Below, piece by piece: positions 2,127 to 13,383 of a stretch of 13,610 nucleotides of DNA. The stretch is from Candidatus Aenigmatarchaeota archaeon. GTDB taxonomy: Archaea > Aenigmatarchaeota > Aenigmatarchaeia > GW2011-AR5 > JACRMX01. Where the stretch lies: contig JACRMX010000023.1 of assembly GCA_016219485.1 (NCBI GenBank), positions 1 through 13,610 on the forward strand, written 5' to 3'. Under the pieces are notes generated by a model, which searched no databases, was not told the origin of the DNA, and worked only from the letters and a program-made list of their open reading frames with translations. The translations under genes and the position numbers were made by a program. Every line of letters begins with the position of its first letter. Within the stretch, counting starts at the first letter, position 1.

Positions 2127-3143
2127 CTATTCCTTCTTTTCATAGAGCAAAGATATGCTTTCCACGCCCTGTATGTTCGAGCGTAGGAACATGTTCAGGA
2201 AATTCTTTGCCTGCATGTGATCGTTTAGCATACGGGTTATCCGTTCTCTATCAATAACTGTGTATATCCTTACCTTCTCGAATCCGAGCTTGCTCTGTAG
2301 AAGACCTTCCTTTTCAAGCTTATGTAGCAGCGGGTATAGCGTGCCTGAAGAAAGCAAAACATGAAAGTTATCGTATATTCTCTTTTTTATATTAATTCCG
2401 CATATAGGCTCTTTGGAAACCATAGCAAGAATAATCGTCTTCAATTCGTCTTTCACAAATTTTTCAAAAAAGCCGTTGGTGGTATTTGCTAAAGAGGGTC
2501 CTGTGTCTAGCATATTATTGTCCTTGATTATAATGGCCTTAGAGTGCTTCTCTACTATTCTCCTACAATCGTCCTTGCCTAATTTGGTGATGTCGTACAT
2601 GCAGAGTACAGCGTCGCAATGCAATTTGCTGAGAACTTTTTCCCTCTCTTCGTAATTGAGAAAGCTTTCAGCATTATTAAACCCTATCTTTTTCCTTTTG
2701 TGTACAACCTCATGTTTTAGCGTTTTCGTCGGCTTTGGCTCCAGTGACCTGACCTGTATAGGAGAAGTGCAATCTATTATTATTGTGCCAAAGTCGCCAT
2801 TTCCACTCTTCTTCCCTTCGCCCCCCCCCCTCTCCAACCAGAAAAATTTATTAATGTTCTCTATGGAAGGGTTGATTATTGTCAGTTTTCCAACTTTATA
2901 GTCTATTAGGATTTCCCTTACCTTTTCTAAATTCTCGTCTGTAATCAAAAGGGCATTAGTATTTCTGCCGGACAAGAACTGGACGTAAATTTTATATTTG
3001 TCCGTTTCTGGTGTATATAAATATAAAATATGCCCATTCCCGGACAAGAGATGATTCGTAGATTCGTTAATATTGTCAAAGGTTACTAAATGCTCATTGC
3101 ACAACTTATTTTCTGATGCCCACATATTTTCCAATGCCCACAC
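2127..3143 (-). CDS. Fused transcriptional regulator: N-terminal MEDS-like sensory domain plus C-terminal PadR-type winged helix. Start is either GTG 3143 or ATG 3125.
   Basis: C-terminus has the PadR signature GTLYPLLHKLEKEGLL. The N-terminal ~200 aa has MEDS-like motifs (HILYLY...E, DAVLCMYDITKL...H). The stop is 2 nt before the gvpF ATG, so translation looks coupled. It contains a G10 tract encoding Gly-Gly-Gly. Confidence 0.6.
   Translation of the reverse strand: MWALENMWASENKLCNEHLVTFDNINESTNHLLSGNGHILYLYTPETDKYKIYVQFLSGRNTNALLITDENLEKVREILIDYKVGKLTIINPSIENINKFFWLERGGGEGKKSGNGDFGTIIIDCTSPIQVRSLEPKPTKTLKHEVVHKRKKIGFNNAESFLNYEEREKVLSKLHCDAVLCMYDITKLGKDDCRRIVEKHSKAIIIKDNNMLDTGPSLANTTNGFFEKFVKDELKTIILAMVSKEPICGINIKKRIYDNFHVLLSSGTLYPLLHKLEKEGLLQSKLGFEKVRIYTVIDRERITRMLNDHMQAKNFLNMFLRSNIQGVESISLLYEKKE
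2821..2830. repeat. C10/G10 homopolymeric tract inside the regulator CDS.
   Basis: cccccccccc at 2821-2830. The minus strand reads AGG GGG GGG GGC, giving R-G-G-G in the ORF (WLERGGGEGKK). This is very unusual in the AT-rich sequence here. Confidence 0.95.
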
Positions 3144-3429: not shown

Positions 3430-3714
3430 TTATTTTTCTTCTTCAGAATGCGTATAAGGTACGCCGCGTCTTCTTGTATTAAGTCTTCTATAGCTTAGAA
3501 TTTTATTGCCACCCTCAGTGATAACAACCTCGTATTCTCCTATCAAATCTTGGCTGCTTGGAACAGCTCTTCTTTCCAGCATCTCAATATTAATCTGCCA
3601 ATTTTTTCCAACCTGCTTGGCGCTTATAATACCGAGCGATTCTTTCTTCAGCGTATCTTTCATCAGGCTGCTTGCCATTTCATTAATTTTAACAAGTTCG
3701 TTCATAAAAATCAC
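3430..3714 (-). CDS. Small hypothetical protein (91-94 aa) ending the gvpA-gvpN operon. Start is GTG 3714 overlapping the upstream stop, or ATG 3705.
   Basis: ORF MIFMNELVKINEMASSLMKDTLKK...YEVVITEGGNKILSYRRLNTRRRGVPY. Start-stop overlap or 5-nt spacing with the paralog gene. No family recognised. Confidence 0.45.
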   Translation of the reverse strand: MIFMNELVKINEMASSLMKDTLKKESLGIISAKQVGKNWQINIEMLERRAVPSSQDLIGEYEVVITEGGNKILSYRRLNTRRRGVPYTHSEEEK

Positions 3715-4058
3715 GGAATGTAAACATAGTCGTTTTCGAGTCTTACTTGTGCGCCAATCCAGTCTTTCAGCGACCCCTTCACATTATAGCTTTCCAGATT
3801 CTCTACATTGAAATAATATTTTAGGAATTGCGCCAGCTTATTCCTTCTGAACTGACCAGCCTTGCTAAAAGCCTTGGGGTCAAAGCTACCATCAGCTTTT
3901 AGGCATGTAAAAAACATCTCTTTTATCTCCTTGTCAGCAGTTTTGACTTTTATGATAATAACATCAGTATCATTTCCAATTCTCTTAGGCTTCTTCTTCC
4001 ATAGGTCGTAGACGCTGTATAGCTTTGCCTCTTTGATAAGTCCGTGGTTTGTTATCAT
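3711..4058 (-). CDS. Hypothetical protein, paralog 2 of a tandem pair (115 aa).
   Basis: Clearly similar to the 4144-4500 product: both share a KLY(D/S)VYDLWKKKP...DTD.I..KVK....EIKE.FFTCLK.DG.F. K..SK....RNKLA.FL.YYF...E.YN.K....DW.G..V pattern. ATG at 4056-4058. Confidence 0.5.
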   Translation of the reverse strand: MITNHGLIKEAKLYSVYDLWKKKPKRIGNDTDVIIIKVKTADKEIKEMFFTCLKADGSFDPKAFSKAGQFRRNKLAQFLKYYFNVENLESYNVKGSLKDWIGAQVRLENDYVYIP

Positions 4059-4143: not shown

Positions 4144-4500
4144 TTATTGCTTTTTAACAGTAAGGGGAATAAATATTCTATCGTCCTTTATTTGTACACG
4201 TCGACCTTTCCAGTCCTTTATATTTTCCTTTAGATTATACTCCTCTGGGTTTGTGTCAAAATAGTACATGAGAAATCGTGCAAGCTTATTTCTCATGGCG
4301 GCACTTCTTTTGCTTGGGGTTTTTGTTGAAAAGGTTCCATCCCCTTTCAGACAGGTGAAGAATGTTTCTTTTATTTCTTTGTTTCCGCTCTTCACTTTTA
4401 CTACTATAGCGTCTGTGTCATTGAAAGCGACCTGGCGTGGTTTCTTCTTCCATAAGTCGTATACATCATATAATTTAGCATCAACAATAACAGCATCCAT
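4144..4500 (-). CDS. Hypothetical protein, paralog 1 of a tandem pair. The ORF track starts at TTG 4512; the likely start is ATG 4498-4500.
   Basis: Paralogous to the 3711-4058 product (see that entry). The ATG at 4498-4500 is preceded by GGGTG (rc of 4506-4510), which is SD-like. No family recognised. Confidence 0.5.
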   Translation of the reverse strand: MDAVIVDAKLYDVYDLWKKKPRQVAFNDTDAIVVKVKSGNKEIKETFFTCLKGDGTFSTKTPSKRSAAMRNKLARFLMYYFDTNPEEYNLKENIKDWKGRRVQIKDDRIFIPLTVKKQ

Positions 4501-4545
4501 CAAAACACCCAATTTCTTAATATCTTAATAGCTGAAAACATTACA

Positions 4546-4950
4546 TTATATGTAAACGACCTCAGGTCTTGGTATGCTGGGCGAGAATGGCATCCTCCTG
4601 CCACCCCATTTCCATGATCTCTTATCCCATCTCACCAATTTCTTATCAAACCCAGAAAGTTTGGCATTCCAGTTTGAAGCGTAGATGACCTCCCTTCTTC
4701 TCCACCGGCTCTGCCATTTGAGTGCTCTCTTTGCCATTCTTGCTTCTGATCTTTCTGCCCTTCTATCCCACTTCAAGGCAAGCTTATTTGCACGCAAATC
4801 CCATTTTATACTCCAAGAAGAAACCTTTGCCTTGTAGCCTGCTTCATATTTTACTCTTTTAGCTAGCCATTTTGTGCTTATCCTGGCATTCTTGGCATCC
4901 TGCTTTAAATGCCTCATTTCAATTTTTCTTGCTAATCTATTTTGCAGCAT
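4546..4950 (-). CDS. Very basic Trp/Lys/Arg-rich repetitive protein (134 aa) immediately downstream of gvpN.
   Basis: The ATG at 4948-4950 is 2 nt after the gvpN TAA (TAATTATG). The sequence has repeated W-x3-W / KW(D/Q) elements: WSIKWDLRANKLALKWDRRAE...ALKWQSRWRRRE...LVRWDKRSWKWGGRR. No family recognised. Confidence 0.5.
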   Translation of the reverse strand: MLQNRLARKIEMRHLKQDAKNARISTKWLAKRVKYEAGYKAKVSSWSIKWDLRANKLALKWDRRAERSEARMAKRALKWQSRWRRREVIYASNWNAKLSGFDKKLVRWDKRSWKWGGRRMPFSPSIPRPEVVYI

Positions 4951-4952
4951 AA

Positions 4953-5978
4953 TTATAACATTTTTTGAATTCGCTCCTTTATCAATAATCTTTTTTTGGC
5001 TACATCATCAAAACCTAAGAATTTTGATGACATGGCATCAACACATACTTCTTCGAGATAATCTTTACCAAAACCGTTAGTTGCCTGTAAGGCCTGCCCG
5101 ATCATTATTGCTATCCTTGTTCCAGGTTTTTCTACACCGCCTAAAATGTTTCGCAGTTCCCTTACTACATCGACAATCTTCTCAGCCCGCGCTTTCGGCA
5201 GGCCCGAATGAGCTTGAACTATCTTTACCTCTGTATCCCTGTTGTAATAATCCATATGTATTGTTGCAATCCTGTCTAGCAATGCATCCTGCGGCTTGTG
5301 GACGCCTGCGTACTCCATATTATTTGAAGTCAGCAACAATGAGAAATCCGGGTGAACTTTGATGTACCTATCTTCGCCGAACTTAGTTGGCAGTTCCAAT
5401 ACACCCTCTTCCAGAACAGAAAGCAGGATGTTGTTTGCCTCAGGCCTGCTCCTTGAGAATTCATTATAAATTAATGTATAGCCATACTGGCACGCAAGTG
5501 TCAGAGGATTAGAAACCCATCTTGCTTCCATCGTATCTTTATCCTTGAAGACATTGTGAATAAATTTATCCCTTATGGTGGTCATCTCTATCTTTGAATA
5601 GCCGCCGATCAGGTTAGTGGTATTAATGGCTTCATCACCATTAACCCATACAGAAGGCTTTCCGAGCAAATTGGCAGCCTGCAAGGCTAGTGCAGTTTTC
5701 CCGCATCCTGTAGGACCAATAATGTGTACAGGATAGCCAGTCTTTAGCCATAGGAGGATTTTGCCTATATACCTTTTGACTTCGTCTGTCTCAATAAAAT
5801 TTTTCGGCACTGGTGACAAGAATTTTGCTTCGATATCTTCCCTTACTGTAGCAAGCTGGACTTCTCTGACATCTTCCTGTTCGCGTTGTCTAGTAAGTAT
5901 TGTAAGCTTTTTCTCAGCTATGGCTTGGTGAACAGCTCCACCTCTAACTTTTCGCGGATGTTCTGGAACATATTTCAT
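4953..5978 (-). CDS. gvpN: Gas vesicle protein GvpN (AAA+ ATPase).
   Basis: Walker A GPTGCGKT, overall AAA+ layout, ~340 aa, and a position downstream of gvpA. The ATG at 5976-5978 is preceded by AAGAGGA (rc of 5983-5989). Confidence 0.88.
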   Translation of the reverse strand: MKYVPEHPRKVRGGAVHQAIAEKKLTILTRQREQEDVREVQLATVREDIEAKFLSPVPKNFIETDEVKRYIGKILLWLKTGYPVHIIGPTGCGKTALALQAANLLGKPSVWVNGDEAINTTNLIGGYSKIEMTTIRDKFIHNVFKDKDTMEARWVSNPLTLACQYGYTLIYNEFSRSRPEANNILLSVLEEGVLELPTKFGEDRYIKVHPDFSLLLTSNNMEYAGVHKPQDALLDRIATIHMDYYNRDTEVKIVQAHSGLPKARAEKIVDVVRELRNILGGVEKPGTRIAIMIGQALQATNGFGKDYLEEVCVDAMSSKFLGFDDVAKKRLLIKERIQKML

Positions 5979-6125
5979 ATCAGAATCCTCTTATTTTATT
6001 GTAACTTTACCCCTACATCTTTGCTTCTAGATGTGTTCATCCGGCTTCCTACCATTGTATCGTTAGTTGGATACCCTGCGAGCCTAGTGGCGTTGAACAT
6101 GCTCATAAAAAATAAAAGCAGGCGA

Positions 6126-6497
6126 TTAGCCCCAAAAATTCTTTATGTACTCTTGCAGTGTCGTGGCTTGATAGTTCTGGATTTTCGTTGCGAAATTGTT
6201 AATCTTTGTCACAACCTTTCTTGAACCTGCGTTTATCTCTCTTACTGCGGCTTTATTTACCTTTTCCTGTTCTTTTATTGTCTGCTGAAATAATGCGATT
6301 TTGTTGTGCACTTCCTGCACGCCTTTGTACATATTTGCAGCTGCTGCAGCATTCTCTTTTTCCTGCGCTCGTATATCATCCACTAACTTGCTCACGCTTG
6401 TCGCCATAACTCGAACACCCGCTTGCATTGTCTTATAGGTTTCTCTAATCGCTGCCTGTTTTGCTCTAACGCTCCCTGCTACAAGTGGATCAGCCAT
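6126..6497 (-). CDS. Helical Ala/Lys/Gln-rich protein (123 aa) with ~33-residue periodicity, between gvpA and gvpN. Candidate GvpC/GvpO-like accessory protein.
   Basis: The ATG at 6495-6497 is preceded by AGGTGA and lies 13 nt after the gvpA stop. Segments KQAAIRETYKTMQAGVRVMATSVSK and KAAVREINAGSRKVVTKINNFATK are 66 residues apart (2 x 33), with a weaker middle copy (AAAAANMYKGVQEV...). The family assignment is uncertain. Confidence 0.55.
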   Translation of the reverse strand: MADPLVAGSVRAKQAAIRETYKTMQAGVRVMATSVSKLVDDIRAQEKENAAAAANMYKGVQEVHNKIALFQQTIKEQEKVNKAAVREINAGSRKVVTKINNFATKIQNYQATTLQEYIKNFWG

Positions 6498-6510
6498 TTA
6501 ATCACCTGCC

Positions 6511-6735
6511 TTAAGCTTTAGCAGGTGCTGCGATGGCCGCTTGCTCAACCTTTGTTATCTCTTCTGCGTAGTGCAGGTATGTGTCAACGCTTGCCACTAC
6601 AACTCTCGCTTCTATAGTGACTATCTCTATTCCCACCAAGTTTACTCTTGCCCATGCATCTACAACCAAACCCTTGTCAAGGATTCGGTCGATAACTTCT
6701 GCAAGACTTGCTGTATCTGGCGCTTGATTTACCAT
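6511..6735 (-). CDS. gvpA: Gas vesicle structural protein GvpA.
   Basis: [45 protein letters not shown] is the hallmark GvpA core. 74 aa. The ATG at 6733-6735 is preceded by GAGGTG. Confidence 0.95.
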
Positions 6736-10803: not shown

Positions 10804-11847
10804 ATGGCTGGTATAGTAGGATATGGCGCATACGTGCCGCGGCTTAGGATAACGGTCGACGAAATAGCGCGCATATGGGGCCAGGACCCTGAGAGCATAA
10901 AAAGCGGGCTTGGCGTGAGTGAGAAAAGCGTGCCTGAGCATGATGAAGACACTGTTACCATAAGTGTTGAAGCTGCAAAAAATGCTATTGCGCGCGCAGC
11001 TATTGACCCAAAGGACATAGGAGCAGTATACGTGGGCTCTGAGAGCCATCCGTACACAGTAAAGCCTTCTGGCACAATAGTTGTTGATAGCCTAGGCATC
11101 GGGCCTGATGTTTCTGTTGCTGACACAGAGTTTGCATGCAGGGCTGGAACAACAAACATATTCATATGCATGGGGCTTGTAATGTCTGGCATGATAAAAT
11201 ATGGCCTTGCTATTGGCGCAGACACATCGCAGGCCAGGCCTGGTGATGCCCTTGAATACACAGCTGCTGCAGGCGGAGCTGCATTTGTAATAGGAAAGGA
11301 CAACGTGGCTGTAAAAATAAAAGACGCATATTCATTTGTAACAGACACTTCTGATTTCTACAGAAAGGAAGGCGAGATATATCCGACACATGCAGGAAGG
11401 TTCACAGGTGAGCCTGCTTATTTCAGGCATGTTATTGCTGCAACAAAAACCGTGCTTGAAAAAAACAGTCTTAAGCCGCAGGATTTTGACTTCTGCGTAT
11501 TCCACATGCCCAATGGAAAATTTCCCGTAAGAGTTGCAAAGATGCTTGGCTTTGAAATGAAACAGCTGGAAGATTCGCTTGTGGTTAAAAAAATAGGAAA
11601 TACCTATTCAGGCTCAAGCCTGCTTGGTCTTTCGTCTGTTTTGGATAAAGCAAAGCCTGACCAGCGCATACTTATTACATCATATGGCTCAGGCGCAGGC
11701 TCGGACTCATTTATAATGGAAACAACAGACCTCATAGAAGAAATTCAGAACAGGGCGCCAAAAACAGACAGCTACATAGATGCTAAAAACAAAGAATACA
11801 TTGACTATGGTACATATGTAAAGATACGAAAAAAATTGAAGATGTGA
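10804..11847 (+). CDS. Archaeal-type hydroxymethylglutaryl-CoA synthase.
   Basis: N-terminal GIVGYGAYVPRLRI, active-site EFACRAGT and 347 aa fit archaeal HMGCS. Position is in an operon with thiolase and DUF35. Confidence 0.88.
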   Translation: MAGIVGYGAYVPRLRITVDEIARIWGQDPESIKSGLGVSEKSVPEHDEDTVTISVEAAKNAIARAAIDPKDIGAVYVGSESHPYTVKPSGTIVVDSLGIGPDVSVADTEFACRAGTTNIFICMGLVMSGMIKYGLAIGADTSQARPGDALEYTAAAGGAAFVIGKDNVAVKIKDAYSFVTDTSDFYRKEGEIYPTHAGRFTGEPAYFRHVIAATKTVLEKNSLKPQDFDFCVFHMPNGKFPVRVAKMLGFEMKQLEDSLVVKKIGNTYSGSSLLGLSSVLDKAKPDQRILITSYGSGAGSDSFIMETTDLIEEIQNRAPKTDSYIDAKNKEYIDYGTYVKIRKKLKM

Positions 11848-11867
11848 TATTAGATGAGTGTGATGCT

Positions 11868-13007
11868 ATGAAAAAGATCGCGATCATTGGCGGTTACCAG
11901 ACTGCATTCGGCGAGCTGTGGGAAAAATCACTCGGAGACTTAATAGAAGAGGCAGGCATAGGCGCGATCAGCGATTCCGGAATAGAGAAAAATGATGTTA
12001 ACTGCCTCTATCTTGGAAACATGGCAGCAGGCCGTTTTGTAGGGCAGGAGCATGTGGCTGCATTTGCTGCTGACTGCCTCTCTCTTAAGGTGCCTGCTAT
12101 ACGGTGCGAGGCTGCCTGCGCATCAGGTGCTCTTGCTTTTTCACAGGCGTGCATAAAAATATTGAGTGGAAAGGCTGAAACTGCGCTTGTTATCGGCGCA
12201 GAGAAAATGACTGATGTTATAGGTTCAGAGGCTGTAACAACGCTGATGGGAGCAGGGGACAGTGAATGGGAATCGAGCATAGGGCTGACATTTGCAGGGC
12301 TCTATGCACTAATGGCACGCGCGCATATGCACAGGTATAAAACAACAAGAGAGCAGCTTGCAATGGTCGCTGTTAATAACCATAAAAACGGGCAGAAAAA
12401 TGAAAAGGCGCAGTTCCGCTTTCCTATCACAGTGGATGATGTAATAAAATCTGCTGTCATAGCAGACCCCCTGCGGCTTCTTGACTGTTCTCCGATAACA
12501 GACGGAGCAGCATCAGTGATAGTTGCGAGCGAGGATTATGTGCAAAAGAAAAAAATAGAAAATCCTGTCTGGGTTCTTGGCAGCAGCCATGGAAGCGACA
12601 GCATAGGCCTCCACGACCGCGCTGACATAACAGAGATGGCTTCAGTTAAAAAAGCTGCAAAGGATGTTTTCGATGAATCTGGATTGAAACACAAGGACAT
12701 TGATGTTGTTGAACTGCATGACTGTTTTACTATAAATGAAATAATAGGCCTGGAAAGCATGGGATTCTGCGAGAAAGGAAAAGGCGGAACATTTGTGGAA
12801 GAGTCTGAATTACCAACAAACACAACAGGCGGGCTGAAATCATGCGGCCATCCTGTAGGAGCCACAGGCGTCAGGCAGATAATAGATATTTACAGGCAGC
12901 TCAAAGGCGTATCTATAAATCAGGTTAAAGGCGCAGAGCACGGGCTTGCTCTGAATGTTGGCGGCAGCGGAGCAACAGCCATTATACATATTCTTGGAGT
13001 TGAATAA
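11868..13007 (+). CDS. Archaeal acetyl-CoA C-acetyltransferase (thiolase). The ORF track starts at GTG 11844; the likely start is ATG 11868 (MKKIAIIGG).
   Basis: IAIIGGYQTAFGE, catalytic CEAACASGALAF, C-terminal GGLKSCGHPVGATG. The HMGCS TGA overlaps the upstream GTG frame. Confidence 0.88.
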   Translation: MKKIAIIGGYQTAFGELWEKSLGDLIEEAGIGAISDSGIEKNDVNCLYLGNMAAGRFVGQEHVAAFAADCLSLKVPAIRCEAACASGALAFSQACIKILSGKAETALVIGAEKMTDVIGSEAVTTLMGAGDSEWESSIGLTFAGLYALMARAHMHRYKTTREQLAMVAVNNHKNGQKNEKAQFRFPITVDDVIKSAVIADPLRLLDCSPITDGAASVIVASEDYVQKKKIENPVWVLGSSHGSDSIGLHDRADITEMASVKKAAKDVFDESGLKHKDIDVVELHDCFTINEIIGLESMGFCEKGKGGTFVEESELPTNTTGGLKSCGHPVGATGVRQIIDIYRQLKGVSINQVKGAEHGLALNVGGSGATAIIHILGVE

Positions 13008-13008
13008 A

Positions 13009-13383
13009 ATGGAGTCAGTTCCGATTAAATGGAGAAGGCAGAGGCACAGGTACATGCTTACCGGCTCAAAATGCAGCTGCGGCGGTGTTTTTTATCCGCC
13101 CAGAAATTTATGCAGCTGTGGAAAAAATACAGAAGATGCTGTGCTCAGCGGTGAGGGAAAAATAATCTCATACACAGAAATACATACTGCGCCAGAAGGA
13201 TTTGAAGCAGAGACGCCATACACAATAGCACTCATAAAACTAAAAGACGGACCTGTTATACCAGCACATATTGTTGGCAGAGGCGCTGAAATAGGGAAAA
13301 AAGTGGCCCCTGTTTTCAGGAAAATGGGAGAAGGCGGCAAAAAAGGCGTTATTGCCTACACAACAAAATTTGTCGTCGTGTAA
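13009..13383 (+). CDS. DUF35 OB-fold/zinc-ribbon protein, the scaffold partner of archaeal thiolase/HMGCS. The ORF track starts at 12955; the likely start is ATG 13009 (MESVPIKW).
   Basis: CSCGGVFYPPRNLCSCG zinc ribbon followed by an OB-fold-like C-terminal half. The ATG is 1 nt after the thiolase TAA, with a GGAG upstream. Confidence 0.82.
   Translation: MESVPIKWRRQRHRYMLTGSKCSCGGVFYPPRNLCSCGKNTEDAVLSGEGKIISYTEIHTAPEGFEAETPYTIALIKLKDGPVIPAHIVGRGAEIGKKVAPVFRKMGEGGKKGVIAYTTKFVVV

What the first reader, a model, noticed from the sequence alone, without database searches (positions are those of the whole stretch)
6126..6497. A 123-aa helical protein with ~33-residue periodicity between gvpA and gvpN, a GvpC-like candidate
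The protein is Ala/Lys/Gln-rich and has no Pro, so it is predicted to be all alpha-helical. Related segments recur with a 33-residue spacing. KQAAIRETYKTMQAGVRV (from residue 13) matches KAAVREINAGSRKVV (from residue 79), which is 66 residues later. A weaker match lies 33 residues later, in the middle. In cyanobacteria, GvpC, the protein that stiffens the vesicle from outside, is made of 33-residue repeats. A short GvpC-like protein encoded next to gvpA would be a reasonable analogue. The alternative is a GvpO-like protein.
Basis: inference. Interest (0 to 1): 0.55.

Follow-up and report, generated by a model that had tools for sequence, protein, structure and literature searches.

The report
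Unannotated GvpC-like rod beside gvpA
The small gene between gvpA and gvpN encodes a single long, basic, repeat-built alpha-helix from a previously unnamed archaeal protein family that always sits where the shell-stiffening protein GvpC sits in other organisms, so it is probably the "missing" GvpC of methanogen-type gas-vesicle clusters, although this is untested.

Summary
The ORF at 6126-6497 (minus strand, 123 aa) is a real gene under purifying selection (dN/dS 0.135). Its internal repeat is real and far above chance, but the period is 32 residues, not 33. AlphaFold2 predicts one continuous helix (residues 4-122, pLDDT 88). The helix has a hydrophobic, conserved stripe, and the protein has pI 9.8 against an acidic GvpA. 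It belongs to a family of about 90 unannotated sequences. I found a member directly between gvpA and gvpN in 38 of 80 GvpN loci: Methanoperedens, Methanothrix, Methanosarcina, Methanolobus, Bathyarchaeia, Altiarchaeota and Iainarchaeum. The family has a variable repeat number (79-375 aa) and a near-invariant C-terminus Y-[IV]-[KR]-x-F-[YW]-(Y)-G. It matches no curated GvpC model (PF01304, TIGR02641, PF05465) and is not GvpO, which has its own gene in the window. Similarity to haloarchaeal GvpC is suggestive but inconclusive; that protein has a 32-residue repeat model and a repeat domain ending in ARDFYG. Best reading: a GvpC-type outer scaffold, probably a new sequence variant. A 2022 review states that methanogen clusters lack gvpC.

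The parts
6126..6497 (-). Gene X: a 123-aa, 13.7-kDa, pI 9.84 helical repeat protein (stop codon 6126-6128). It is the GvpC-slot protein.
   Evidence: ORF list. dN/dS is 0.135 against the 85%-identical orthologue in L001. AlphaFold2 gives a single helix over residues 4-122, pLDDT 88. pI and charge.
6375..6470 (-). Repeat 1 (residues 10-41, VRAKQAAIRETYKTMQAGVRVMATSVSKLVDD).
   Evidence: Lag-32 self-alignment; stacked register.
6279..6374 (-). Repeat 2 (residues 42-73, IRAQEKENAAAAANMYKGVQEVHNKIALFQQT).
   Evidence: It matches the family repeat consensus I-x-x-Q-x-K-E-N-x-x-A-A-x-x-[IM]-x-x-G-V-[RK]-E-[MLI].
6183..6278 (-). Repeat 3 (residues 74-105, IKEQEKVNKAAVREINAGSRKVVTKINNFATK).
6129..6182 (-). 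Truncated repeat 4 (residues 106-123). It ends in the family's C-terminal motif YIKNFWG (residues 117-123, 6129-6149). G123 falls on the 94%-conserved Gly of the repeat.
   Evidence: C-terminal alignment of 49 family members. The motif is also present in 38 further members. Register.
6502..6507 (-). Shine-Dalgarno-like AGGTGA, 4 nt upstream of the ATG of X. Only 13 nt separate the gvpA stop (6511-6513) from the X start.
   Evidence: Read directly from the sequence. Function is inferred.
6107..6117 (-). Oligo-T tract TTTTATTTTTT, 8 nt after the stop of X. It is a possible archaeal terminator ending a gvpA-X transcript.
   Evidence: Read directly from the sequence. Function is inferred, not tested.
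6511..6735 (-). gvpA, the shell protein and proposed binding partner (pI 4.5).
   Evidence: PF00741 E 1.4e-14; NF006874 125.7 bits. pI.
4953..5978 (-). gvpN (AAA+ ATPase). It is the downstream neighbour that defines the gvpA-X-gvpN slot.
   Evidence: TIGR02640 320.5 bits, cut-off 266.8.

Best explanation
Gene X encodes a GvpC-type accessory structural protein. It is a roughly 18-nm, basic, amphipathic single alpha-helix built from about 3.5 copies of a 32-residue repeat. It is co-translated with GvpA from a tight gvpA-X unit.

The proposed mechanism is as follows. The helix lies on the acidic outer surface of the assembled GvpA shell. One conserved face of each repeat packs against exposed GvpA helices (positions 1, 4, 8, 11, 15, 18, 22, 26, 29: I, Q, N, A, I/M, G, M/L, I, F). 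This ties neighbouring GvpA subunits together and raises the collapse pressure, as GvpC does in cyanobacteria and haloarchaea. The conserved C-terminal Y-I-K-x-F-[YW]-G caps the rod.

**Shown here**
- The gene is real and conserved.
- The repeat is real, with a 32-residue period.
- The structure is predicted to be a single helix.
- One helix face is conserved and hydrophobic.
- The position between gvpA and gvpN is fixed across many archaeal lineages.
- Repeat number varies among homologues.

**Inferred**
- Binding to the vesicle surface.
- The stiffening function.
- Electrostatic complementarity with GvpA as a driver of binding.
- Termination of the transcript after X.
For: 1. **Position.**
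   - A family member lies on the same strand, directly after the last gvpA copy and before gvpN, in 38 of 80 GvpN loci from GTDB genomes.
   - The same holds in L001, L004, L005 and L006.
   - This is the gvpA-C-N order of Halobacterium and of the cluster table in PMC9501494.
2. **Architecture.**
   - The 32-residue repeat is significant.
   - The family repeat HMM finds 322 repeat instances in 88 proteins.
   - Protein length varies from 79 to 375 aa through repeat number.
   - Variable repeat number is a described property of GvpC (PMC9372576).
3. **Rod shape.**
   - AlphaFold2 gives one helix over residues 4-122 (pLDDT 88).
   - It gives a 149-residue helix in relative P0022.
4. **One functional face.**
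   - The conservation moment peaks at 102 degrees; 0 of 2000 permutations reach it.
   - The hydrophobic moment is coherent over 112 residues at 100 degrees; 0 of 2000 permutations reach it.
   - This is analogous to the conserved face of the Anabaena GvpC repeat, which contacts GvpA helix alpha2 (PMC9994262).
5. **Charge.** The protein has pI 9.84 (net +8) against GvpA pI 4.5.
6. **Selection.** dN/dS is 0.135, like gvpN at 0.12.
7. **Possible link to haloarchaeal GvpC.**
   - Pfam's Halo_GVPC model is 32 residues long.
   - The haloarchaeal repeat domain ends in an invariant A[FY]AR[AD]FYG.
   - A family C-terminal HMM scores four haloarchaeal GvpCs at 12-23 bits. Two thousand shuffles reach at most 5.7 bits and reversed sequences at most 2 bits.
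   - The best domain always ends at FYG.
   - hhalign co-terminates the two profiles (P 5.7e-4, against about 0.5 for reversed controls).
8. **Co-regulation.**
   - In Methanothrix thermoacetophila, the unannotated gene between gvpN and gvpA (Mthe_0059) changes 2.18-fold together with the gvp genes (PMC10470525 supplement).
   - That Mthe_0059 belongs to the family is inferred from position only.
Against: - No curated GvpC model is matched. PF01304, PF05465 and TIGR02641 are absent at E <= 1 for the target.
- The best family hit to PF05465 is 12 bits, E 0.27.
- hhalign probabilities against haloarchaeal GvpC are only 16-39%.
- The reciprocal test failed: a haloarchaeal-repeat HMM against the family is not above shuffles.
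- The family profile also scores influenza HA2 coiled-coil segments at about 25 bits. Scores in this range can therefore arise from helical periodicity alone.
- The repeat period is not fixed in the family (18, 25, 32, 43, 50, 58). That argues against a strict lattice match.
- The conserved stripe has 3-4 spacing, which could instead mean a coiled-coil dimer.
- Most relatives carry an extra N-terminal helix-extended-helix domain of unknown role.
- A second repeat protein in the window (4546-4950, 11- and 33-residue periodicity) is an alternative shell binder.
- There is no experimental evidence of association with vesicles.
Confidence: 0.6

Rival explanations
1. X is a coiled-coil assembly factor or adaptor. 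It dimerises through its heptad-like stripe and acts during vesicle biogenesis, for example by handing GvpA to GvpN/GvpO or nucleating growth. It is not a stoichiometric component of the mature shell.
For: - The conserved positions follow 3-4 spacing.
- The family profile hits coiled coils in the PDB, such as HA2, keratin and designed coiled coils.
- Haloarchaeal GvpC itself dimerises and binds GvpN and GvpO (PMC9372576).
- Relatives have an extra N-terminal domain that suggests adaptor behaviour.
Against: - The stripe is rich in Gly (94%), Ala (81%), Gln and Asn. These are poor coiled-coil core residues.
- AlphaFold2 gives a straight single helix.
- Tight coupling to the highly expressed gvpA fits a structural stoichiometry better.
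- Variable repeat number is typical of GvpC.
Confidence: 0.22
2. X is a general amphipathic-helix surface protein, like apolipophorin-III, phasins or LEA proteins. It coats hydrophobic interfaces or protects against stress and is only loosely associated with the gvp cluster.
For: - There are weak sub-threshold Pfam hits to ApoLp-III, Apolipoprotein and HsbA in the target and its relatives.
- The helix is strongly amphipathic.
Against: - All these hits are far below the gathering scores.
- Every family member whose context could be examined sits between gvpA and gvpN.
- Bona fide haloarchaeal GvpC gives the same weak HsbA and Apolipoprotein hits, so they do not discriminate.
Confidence: 0.08
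3. X is a GvpO-like protein.
For: None was found beyond its small size and its location in the cluster.
Against: - There is a separate gvpO at 3430-3714 (PF05800, E 5.1e-15).
- The target has no PF05800 hit at E <= 1.
- Related clusters carry both genes.
Confidence: 0.01
4. The ORF is a chance open frame, or the repeat is a composition artefact.
For: No curated family matches it.
Against: - dN/dS is 0.135.
- Eighteen homologues have E < 1e-3 in an exhaustive search of 1.84 billion proteins.
- Thirty-eight syntenic members were found.
- A Shine-Dalgarno-like sequence precedes the start.
- The repeat score is about 8 SD above composition-preserving shuffles.
Confidence: 0.01

Closest known systems
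Haloarchaeal GvpC (Pfam PF05465 Halo_GVPC, e.g. Halobacterium salinarum pNRC100 WP_010890518)
   Same: - The gene order is the same: gvpA-C-N-(O).
- Both are alpha-helical repeat proteins. The Pfam repeat model is 32 residues, the same as the period here.
- The repeat domain ends in [FY]-A-R-[DA]-F-Y-G, against Y-I-K-N-F-W-G here. Some relatives end in exactly DFYG.
- There is weak directional profile similarity that co-terminates at this motif.
   Different: - No PF05465 hit for the target.
- The reciprocal HMM test is negative, and the hhalign probability is below 40%.
- The target is basic (pI 9.8), whereas haloarchaeal GvpC is extremely acidic.
- The target has 3.5 repeats rather than 6-7.
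- The target lacks the acidic linker and the C-terminal Cys/His (ROS_MUCR-like) domain of haloarchaeal GvpC.
Cyanobacterial GvpC (Pfam PF01304, NCBIfam TIGR02641; Anabaena flos-aquae)
   Same: - It is encoded directly after gvpA and before gvpN.
- It is a tandem-repeat helical rod with a variable repeat number.
- One helix face is conserved. In Anabaena, that face contacts GvpA helix alpha2 along the ribs, with one repeat per four GvpA (PMC9994262).
- The protein also ends in aromatic-Gly (IFG).
   Different: - The repeat is 33 residues against 32 here.
- There is no sequence or profile similarity (hhalign probability 0.1%; no PF01304 or TIGR02641 hit).
- The conserved residues differ: L/F/R/Q in Anabaena against I/Q/N/A/M/G/F here.
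Other lineage-specific proteins in the gvpA-gvpN slot (Methanophagales and Halobacteriota MAGs with 33-residue repeats, Methanoregula, Chloroflexaceae, alphaproteobacteria)
   Same: They occupy the same slot and are helical repeat proteins. They are likewise unrecognised by PF01304 and PF05465.
   Different: - They are different sequence families. The family HMM does not hit them at E <= 1e-3.
- They have different C-termini (for example ...K-K-E-T-x-Y-F-P-S).
Exchangeable apolipoproteins and apolipophorin-III (PF07464, PF01442)
   Same: These are amphipathic helical repeat proteins that bind a surface through one face. There are weak sub-threshold hits.
   Different: - The scores are far below the thresholds.
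- Those proteins fold back into helix bundles, whereas this one is predicted as a single straight helix.
- The genomic context here is exclusively gvp.

Membership tests
Cyanobacterial GvpC (PF01304 / TIGR02641) | Matches the 33-residue GvpC repeat HMM above the curated cut-off. | tested here: not met
   There is no hit at E <= 1 in Pfam or NCBIfam for the target, and none among 17 relatives. A positive control GvpC scores 171 and 130 bits.
Cyanobacterial GvpC (PF01304 / TIGR02641) | Tandem repeats with a 33-residue period. | tested here: not met
   The period is 32 (score 63). Lag 33 scores 9, which is at chance.
Cyanobacterial GvpC (PF01304 / TIGR02641) | Profile-level homology to cyanobacterial GvpC. 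| tested here: not met
   hhalign of A2 against A3 gives probability 0.1%.
GvpC as a functional class | Gene lies immediately downstream of gvpA and upstream of gvpN. | tested here: met
   Seen in the window, in 38 of 80 GvpN loci, and in L001, L004, L005 and L006.
GvpC as a functional class | Hydrophilic protein made of several alpha-helical repeats of about 32-40 aa that form a long rod (definition in PMC9372576). | tested here: met
   - About 3.5 repeats of 32 aa.
- A single helix over residues 4-122.
- GRAVY -0.43.
- The definition was read.
GvpC as a functional class | Repeat number varies between strains or species. | tested here: met
   Family members range from 79 to 375 aa and differ by whole repeat modules. 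Near-identical Methanoperedens proteins differ in this way.
GvpC as a functional class | Bound to the outer surface of the vesicle; removing it lowers the critical collapse pressure. | not testable with these tools
   This needs purified vesicles. The only indirect support is co-regulation of the slot gene Mthe_0059 with the gvp genes.
Haloarchaeal GvpC (PF05465 Halo_GVPC) | Matches the 32-residue Halo_GVPC repeat HMM above the cut-off (22.4 bits). | tested here: not met
   - The target has no hit at E <= 10.
- Relative P0022 scores 12 bits, E 0.27, at its C-terminus.
- My own haloarchaeal-repeat HMM does not separate the family from shuffles.
Haloarchaeal GvpC (PF05465 Halo_GVPC) | Repeat domain terminated by the invariant [FY]-A-R-[AD]-F-Y-G motif; profile homology around it. 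| tested here: inconclusive
   - The target ends in YIKNFWG. Relatives end in Y[IV][KR]DFY(Y)G.
- The family C-terminal HMM gives 12-23 bits on haloarchaeal GvpC, against at most 5.7 bits in 2000 shuffles and at most 2 bits for reversed sequences.
- hhalign gives P 5.7e-4 but only 29-39% probability.
- Similar bit scores to unrelated coiled coils exist.
Haloarchaeal GvpC (PF05465 Halo_GVPC) | Acidic C-terminal extension with a Cys/His zinc-binding-like domain. | tested here: not met
   The target ends at the FWG motif. Haloarchaeal GvpC continues for about 85-130 residues with a ROS_MUCR-like segment.
GvpO (PF05800) | Matches the GvpO HMM. | tested here: not met
   The target has no hit. A separate gvpO lies at 3430-3714 with E 5.1e-15.

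The most novel reading that the evidence does not exclude
The family is the ancestral, non-halophile form of archaeal GvpC, from which the acidic haloarchaeal GvpC descends. The shared features would be the 32-residue module and the ...[KR]-D-F-Y-G cap.

Its repeats are built from an 18-residue core plus heptad insertions (18, 25, 32 and so on). This would let different lineages tune rod length and register to their GvpA lattice.

The N-terminal helix-extended-helix domain present in most members, and lost in the window's DPANN-like lineage, would tether vesicles to another cellular structure.

If so, methanogens, ANME archaea, Bathyarchaeia and DPANN archaea would not lack GvpC, contrary to the current review literature. 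A compact 123-aa, non-halophilic GvpC would also become available for engineering acoustic reporter vesicles.
Probability: 0.3. Interest if true: 0.65.

Novelty: new variant of a known kind. Interest (0 to 1): 0.5.

Why it matters
GvpC sets the stiffness, width and collapse pressure of gas vesicles. It is also the main handle used to engineer them as ultrasound reporters and display particles.

The 2022 review of the field lists the Methanosarcina cluster as gvpAAA-NOFG-JHKLM and states that methanogen clusters lack gvpC (PMC9501494). A Methanothrix transcriptome study left the corresponding gene as "hypothetical".

A conserved, unannotated repeat-helix family fills exactly that slot across methanogens, Methanoperedens, Bathyarchaeia and DPANN-like archaea. 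This gives a concrete candidate for the missing outer scaffold and makes the question directly testable in cultivable Methanothrix or Methanosarcina.

It would also widen the view of GvpC from two Pfam families to a set of fast-evolving, lineage-specific rods that share position and architecture.

Tried and rejected
- **Lags 33 and 66.** Both are at chance, so they were replaced by 32 and 64.
- **Word-indexed homologue search with the single protein.** It found only one relative. The exhaustive search and the profile search were needed.
- **The search for related loci with the family alignment.** With the single protein it found nothing in GTDB genomes. GvpN was used as the anchor instead.
- **hhalign against cyanobacterial GvpC.** No similarity.
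- **My own haloarchaeal-repeat HMM against the family.** It did not separate the family from shuffles. Homology to haloarchaeal GvpC is therefore left open.
- **Foldseek of the model against the PDB.** No matches, as expected for a lone helix.
- **PDB sequence searches.**
  - They returned only coiled-coil look-alikes such as HA2 and keratin, and no solved haloarchaeal GvpC.
  - I treat the HA2 hits as periodicity artefacts, and as a warning about 20-25-bit scores.
- **PHROGs and PADLOC.** They were not run because they are irrelevant to the context.
- **Organism identity.**
  - It could not be fixed. The best GvpN identity in GTDB representatives is 60%, to Iainarchaeum and Methanoperedens.
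  - The 41%-identical relative P0006 is from a Nanoarchaeota-labelled MAG.
  - A DPANN-like archaeon is therefore only an inference.
- **The M. barkeri genome paper (PMC1636319).** It is not held.

Full report
**Context.** The window carries a gas-vesicle cluster on the minus strand:

| Coordinates | Gene or ORF |
|---|---|
| 6511-6735 | gvpA |
| 6126-6497 | the ORF in question |
| 4953-5978 | gvpN |
| 4546-4950 | a 134-aa basic ORF |
| 4144-4512 and 3711-4058 | two paralogous small ORFs |
| 3430-3714 | gvpO |
| 2127-3143 | a PadR-like protein |
| 1468-2124 | gvpF/L |
| 1175-1519 | gvpG |

The target starts 13 nt after the gvpA stop and is preceded by AGGTGA. It is followed, 8 nt after its stop, by TTTTATTTTTT. 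This looks like a gvpA-X transcription and translation unit, though that is an inference.

**Observation.** The ORF, its length, its composition and its helical nature are confirmed. AlphaFold2 with a 13-sequence alignment gives one uninterrupted helix over residues 4-122, mean pLDDT 88.

The repeat is real, but its period is 32.
- The lag-32 diagonal scores 63. The shuffle maximum was 25.8 +/- 4.5, and 0 of 1000 shuffles reached 63.
- Lag 64 scores 30. Lags 33 and 66 are at chance.
They are 68-69 residues apart, which is out of the true register.
- There is one proline, P4.
- In register, the repeats start at V10, I42, I74 and I106. The protein ends at G123, on the conserved glycine of a truncated fourth repeat.

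**Is it a gene?** Yes.
- An 85%-identical orthologue sits in the same place in an NCBI MAG contig, L001.
- dN/dS between the two is 0.135. gvpN gives 0.12 and gvpA gives 0.04.

**The family.**
- An exhaustive phmmer search of 1.84 billion representatives gave 18 hits at E < 1e-3.
- A profile search gave 38 hits, all "hypothetical" and none with a Pfam domain.
- I anchored on GvpN to fetch 80 loci from GTDB genomes. A family HMM then found a member in 38 of them.
- In every case, the member lies on the gvpN strand, directly after the last gvpA copy and before gvpN.
- The carriers are Methanoperedens, Methanolobus, Methanothrix/Methanotrichaceae, Methanosarcina (a 79-aa version), Bathyarchaeia, Altiarchaeota and Iainarchaeum.
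- Members range from 79 to 375 aa because the number and length of repeat modules vary. The best periods are 18, 25, 32, 43, 50 and 58, consistent with an 18-residue core plus heptad increments.
- All members end in Y-[IVT]-[KRQ]-x-F-[YW]-[YF]?-G.
- Most members, but not the window's protein, have an N-terminal domain of about 45 residues. It is predicted as helix-extended-helix, followed by a disordered linker and then a single 149-residue helix.

**One functional face.**
- A repeat HMM collected 322 repeat instances.
- The most conserved positions are 1 (I 92%), 4 (Q), 8 (N), 11 (A 81%), 15 (I/M), 18 (G 94%), 22 (M/L/I), 26 (I/V) and 29 (F/M).
- The conservation moment peaks at 102 degrees per residue. 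None of 2000 permutations reached it.
- In the target, the hydrophobic moment is coherent over 112 residues at 100 degrees. Again, none of 2000 permutations reached it.
- The protein has pI 9.84 (net +8). The window's GvpA has pI 4.5.
- For Anabaena GvpC, Huber et al. report that conserved residues cluster on one face, that GvpC runs along the ribs on GvpA helix alpha2, and that one 33-residue repeat spans four GvpA subunits (PMC9994262).
- 32 and 33 are the two integers nearest to nine turns of an ideal alpha-helix (32.4 residues). This last point is my own reasoning.

**Comparison with known GvpC families.**
- The target and 16 relatives match neither PF01304 or TIGR02641 (cyanobacterial, 33 residues) nor PF05465 (haloarchaeal).
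- Positive controls score 171 and 245 bits.
- hhalign against seven cyanobacterial GvpCs gives 0.1% probability.

The haloarchaeal comparison is more interesting but inconclusive.

| | Evidence |
|---|---|
| For | The Halo_GVPC model is 32 residues long. |
| For | The repeat domain of four haloarchaeal GvpCs ends in an invariant A[FY]AR[AD]FYG. |
| For | An HMM of the family's last 45 residues scores these proteins at 12-23 bits, against at most 5.7 bits in 2000 shuffles and at most 2 bits for reversed sequences. The best domain always ends at FYG. |
| For | hhalign co-terminates the two profiles with P 5.7e-4, against about 0.5 for reversed controls. |
| For | One relative has a faint PF05465 hit at its C-terminus (E 0.27). 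|
| Against | hhalign probabilities are only 16-39%. |
| Against | The reciprocal haloarchaeal-repeat HMM does not separate the family from shuffles. |
| Against | The family profile also scores influenza HA2 coiled-coil segments at about 25 bits. |

I therefore do not file the protein as a member of PF05465.

**The slot in other lineages.** In GvpN loci without a family member, the gene between gvpA and gvpN is again a helical repeat protein.
- Strong 33-residue repeats occur in Methanophagales and Halobacteriota MAGs and in a Chloroflexaceae MAG.
- Other types occur in Methanoregula and proteobacteria.
- None of these hits PF01304 or PF05465 either.

So "GvpC" behaves as a positional and architectural class with rapidly diverging, lineage-specific sequences. 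The target family is one such lineage.

**Literature.**
- The 2022 review gives the M. barkeri cluster as gvpAAA-NOFG-JHKLM and says methanogen clusters lack gvpC (PMC9501494).
- In Methanothrix thermoacetophila, the gene between gvpN (Mthe_0058) and gvpA (Mthe_0060) is listed as hypothetical. It changes 2.18-fold along with the gvp genes (PMC10470525 supplement). Its family membership is inferred from position.
- The full-text searches I ran turned up no paper that names this family.

**Verdict.**
The protein is GvpC-like by position and architecture. It is not a cyanobacterial-type GvpC and not GvpO.
- The most likely mechanism is a basic amphipathic rod that binds the acidic outer face of the GvpA shell through one conserved face and stiffens it (confidence 0.6).
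- The main rival is a coiled-coil assembly adaptor (0.22).
- Novelty: a new sequence variant of a known kind of protein. It fills a gap that the literature describes as an absence.

Noticed in passing
window 4546-4950 (-): A 134-aa ORF follows gvpN directly (its ATG at 4950-4948 starts right after the gvpN stop codon, 4953-4955).
- It is extremely basic (pI 11.5, 38 K+R) and has 10 Trp.
- It has significant internal periodicity at lags 11 and 33: scores 75 and 61, against a shuffle maximum of 30.8 +/- 5.3.
- The only homologue I found is in L001 (77% aa identity, dN/dS 0.26). It is absent from the 80 GvpN loci.
- It is a second candidate for binding the shell in this lineage.
   Followed up: partly
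window 4144-4512 (-) and 3711-4058 (-): These are tandem paralogues (56% identical) of an unannotated family of about 120 aa with no Pfam or NCBIfam hit. One copy of this family lies directly after gvpN and before gvpO in at least 29 of the archaeal GvpN loci. It is a conserved but unnamed gvp-cluster gene, and probably corresponds to Mthe_0057.
   Followed up: partly
window 2127-3143 (-): A 338-aa protein has a C-terminal PadR winged-helix domain and a weak MEDS-like region. It is embedded between gvpO and gvpF. Homologues occupy the same place in 17 or more loci. It is probably the cluster's own regulator, in place of haloarchaeal GvpD/E.
   Followed up: partly
family members P0003-P0050, L015-L054 (not in the window's protein): Most relatives carry an N-terminal domain of about 45 residues (...KHTRRELEEMAEKLGI...). 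AlphaFold2 predicts it as helix-extended-helix (H5-23, H34-50 in P0022), followed by a disordered K/P/A-rich linker. It looks SAP- or HeH-like. It has been lost in the window's lineage and in the Nanoarchaeota and Iainarchaeum versions.
   Followed up: partly
L010 (Natronorubrum bangense plasmid, CP031306): In this haloarchaeon, gvpA is followed directly by gvpN, with no gvpC listed between them. In L009 (Halogeometricum), the gvpC region reads as two overlapping frames (1825-2649 and 2465-2983) and is missing from the gene table, which suggests a frameshift or pseudogene.
   Followed up: no
window 10804-13383 (+): This stretch has three consecutive ORFs whose translations look like HMG-CoA synthase, acetoacetyl-CoA thiolase and a DUF35-type protein. 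I recognise these as the archaeal mevalonate-pathway trio, but I did not run a family search on them. This supports an archaeal origin. The best GvpN, PadR and small-ORF matches are to an Iainarchaeum MAG (L014), so the source may be a DPANN-like archaeon with gas vesicles.
   Followed up: no
L056, L058 (Methanophagales and Halobacteriota MAGs), gene between gvpA and gvpN: These are 259-305-aa proteins with very strong 33-residue repeats (lag-33 scores 151-238). They end in ...V-N-Y-[FY]-P-L-(E)n. Pfam GvpC models do not recognise them, and they give only sub-threshold ApoLp-III hits. They form another unannotated archaeal GvpC-type family.
   Followed up: partly
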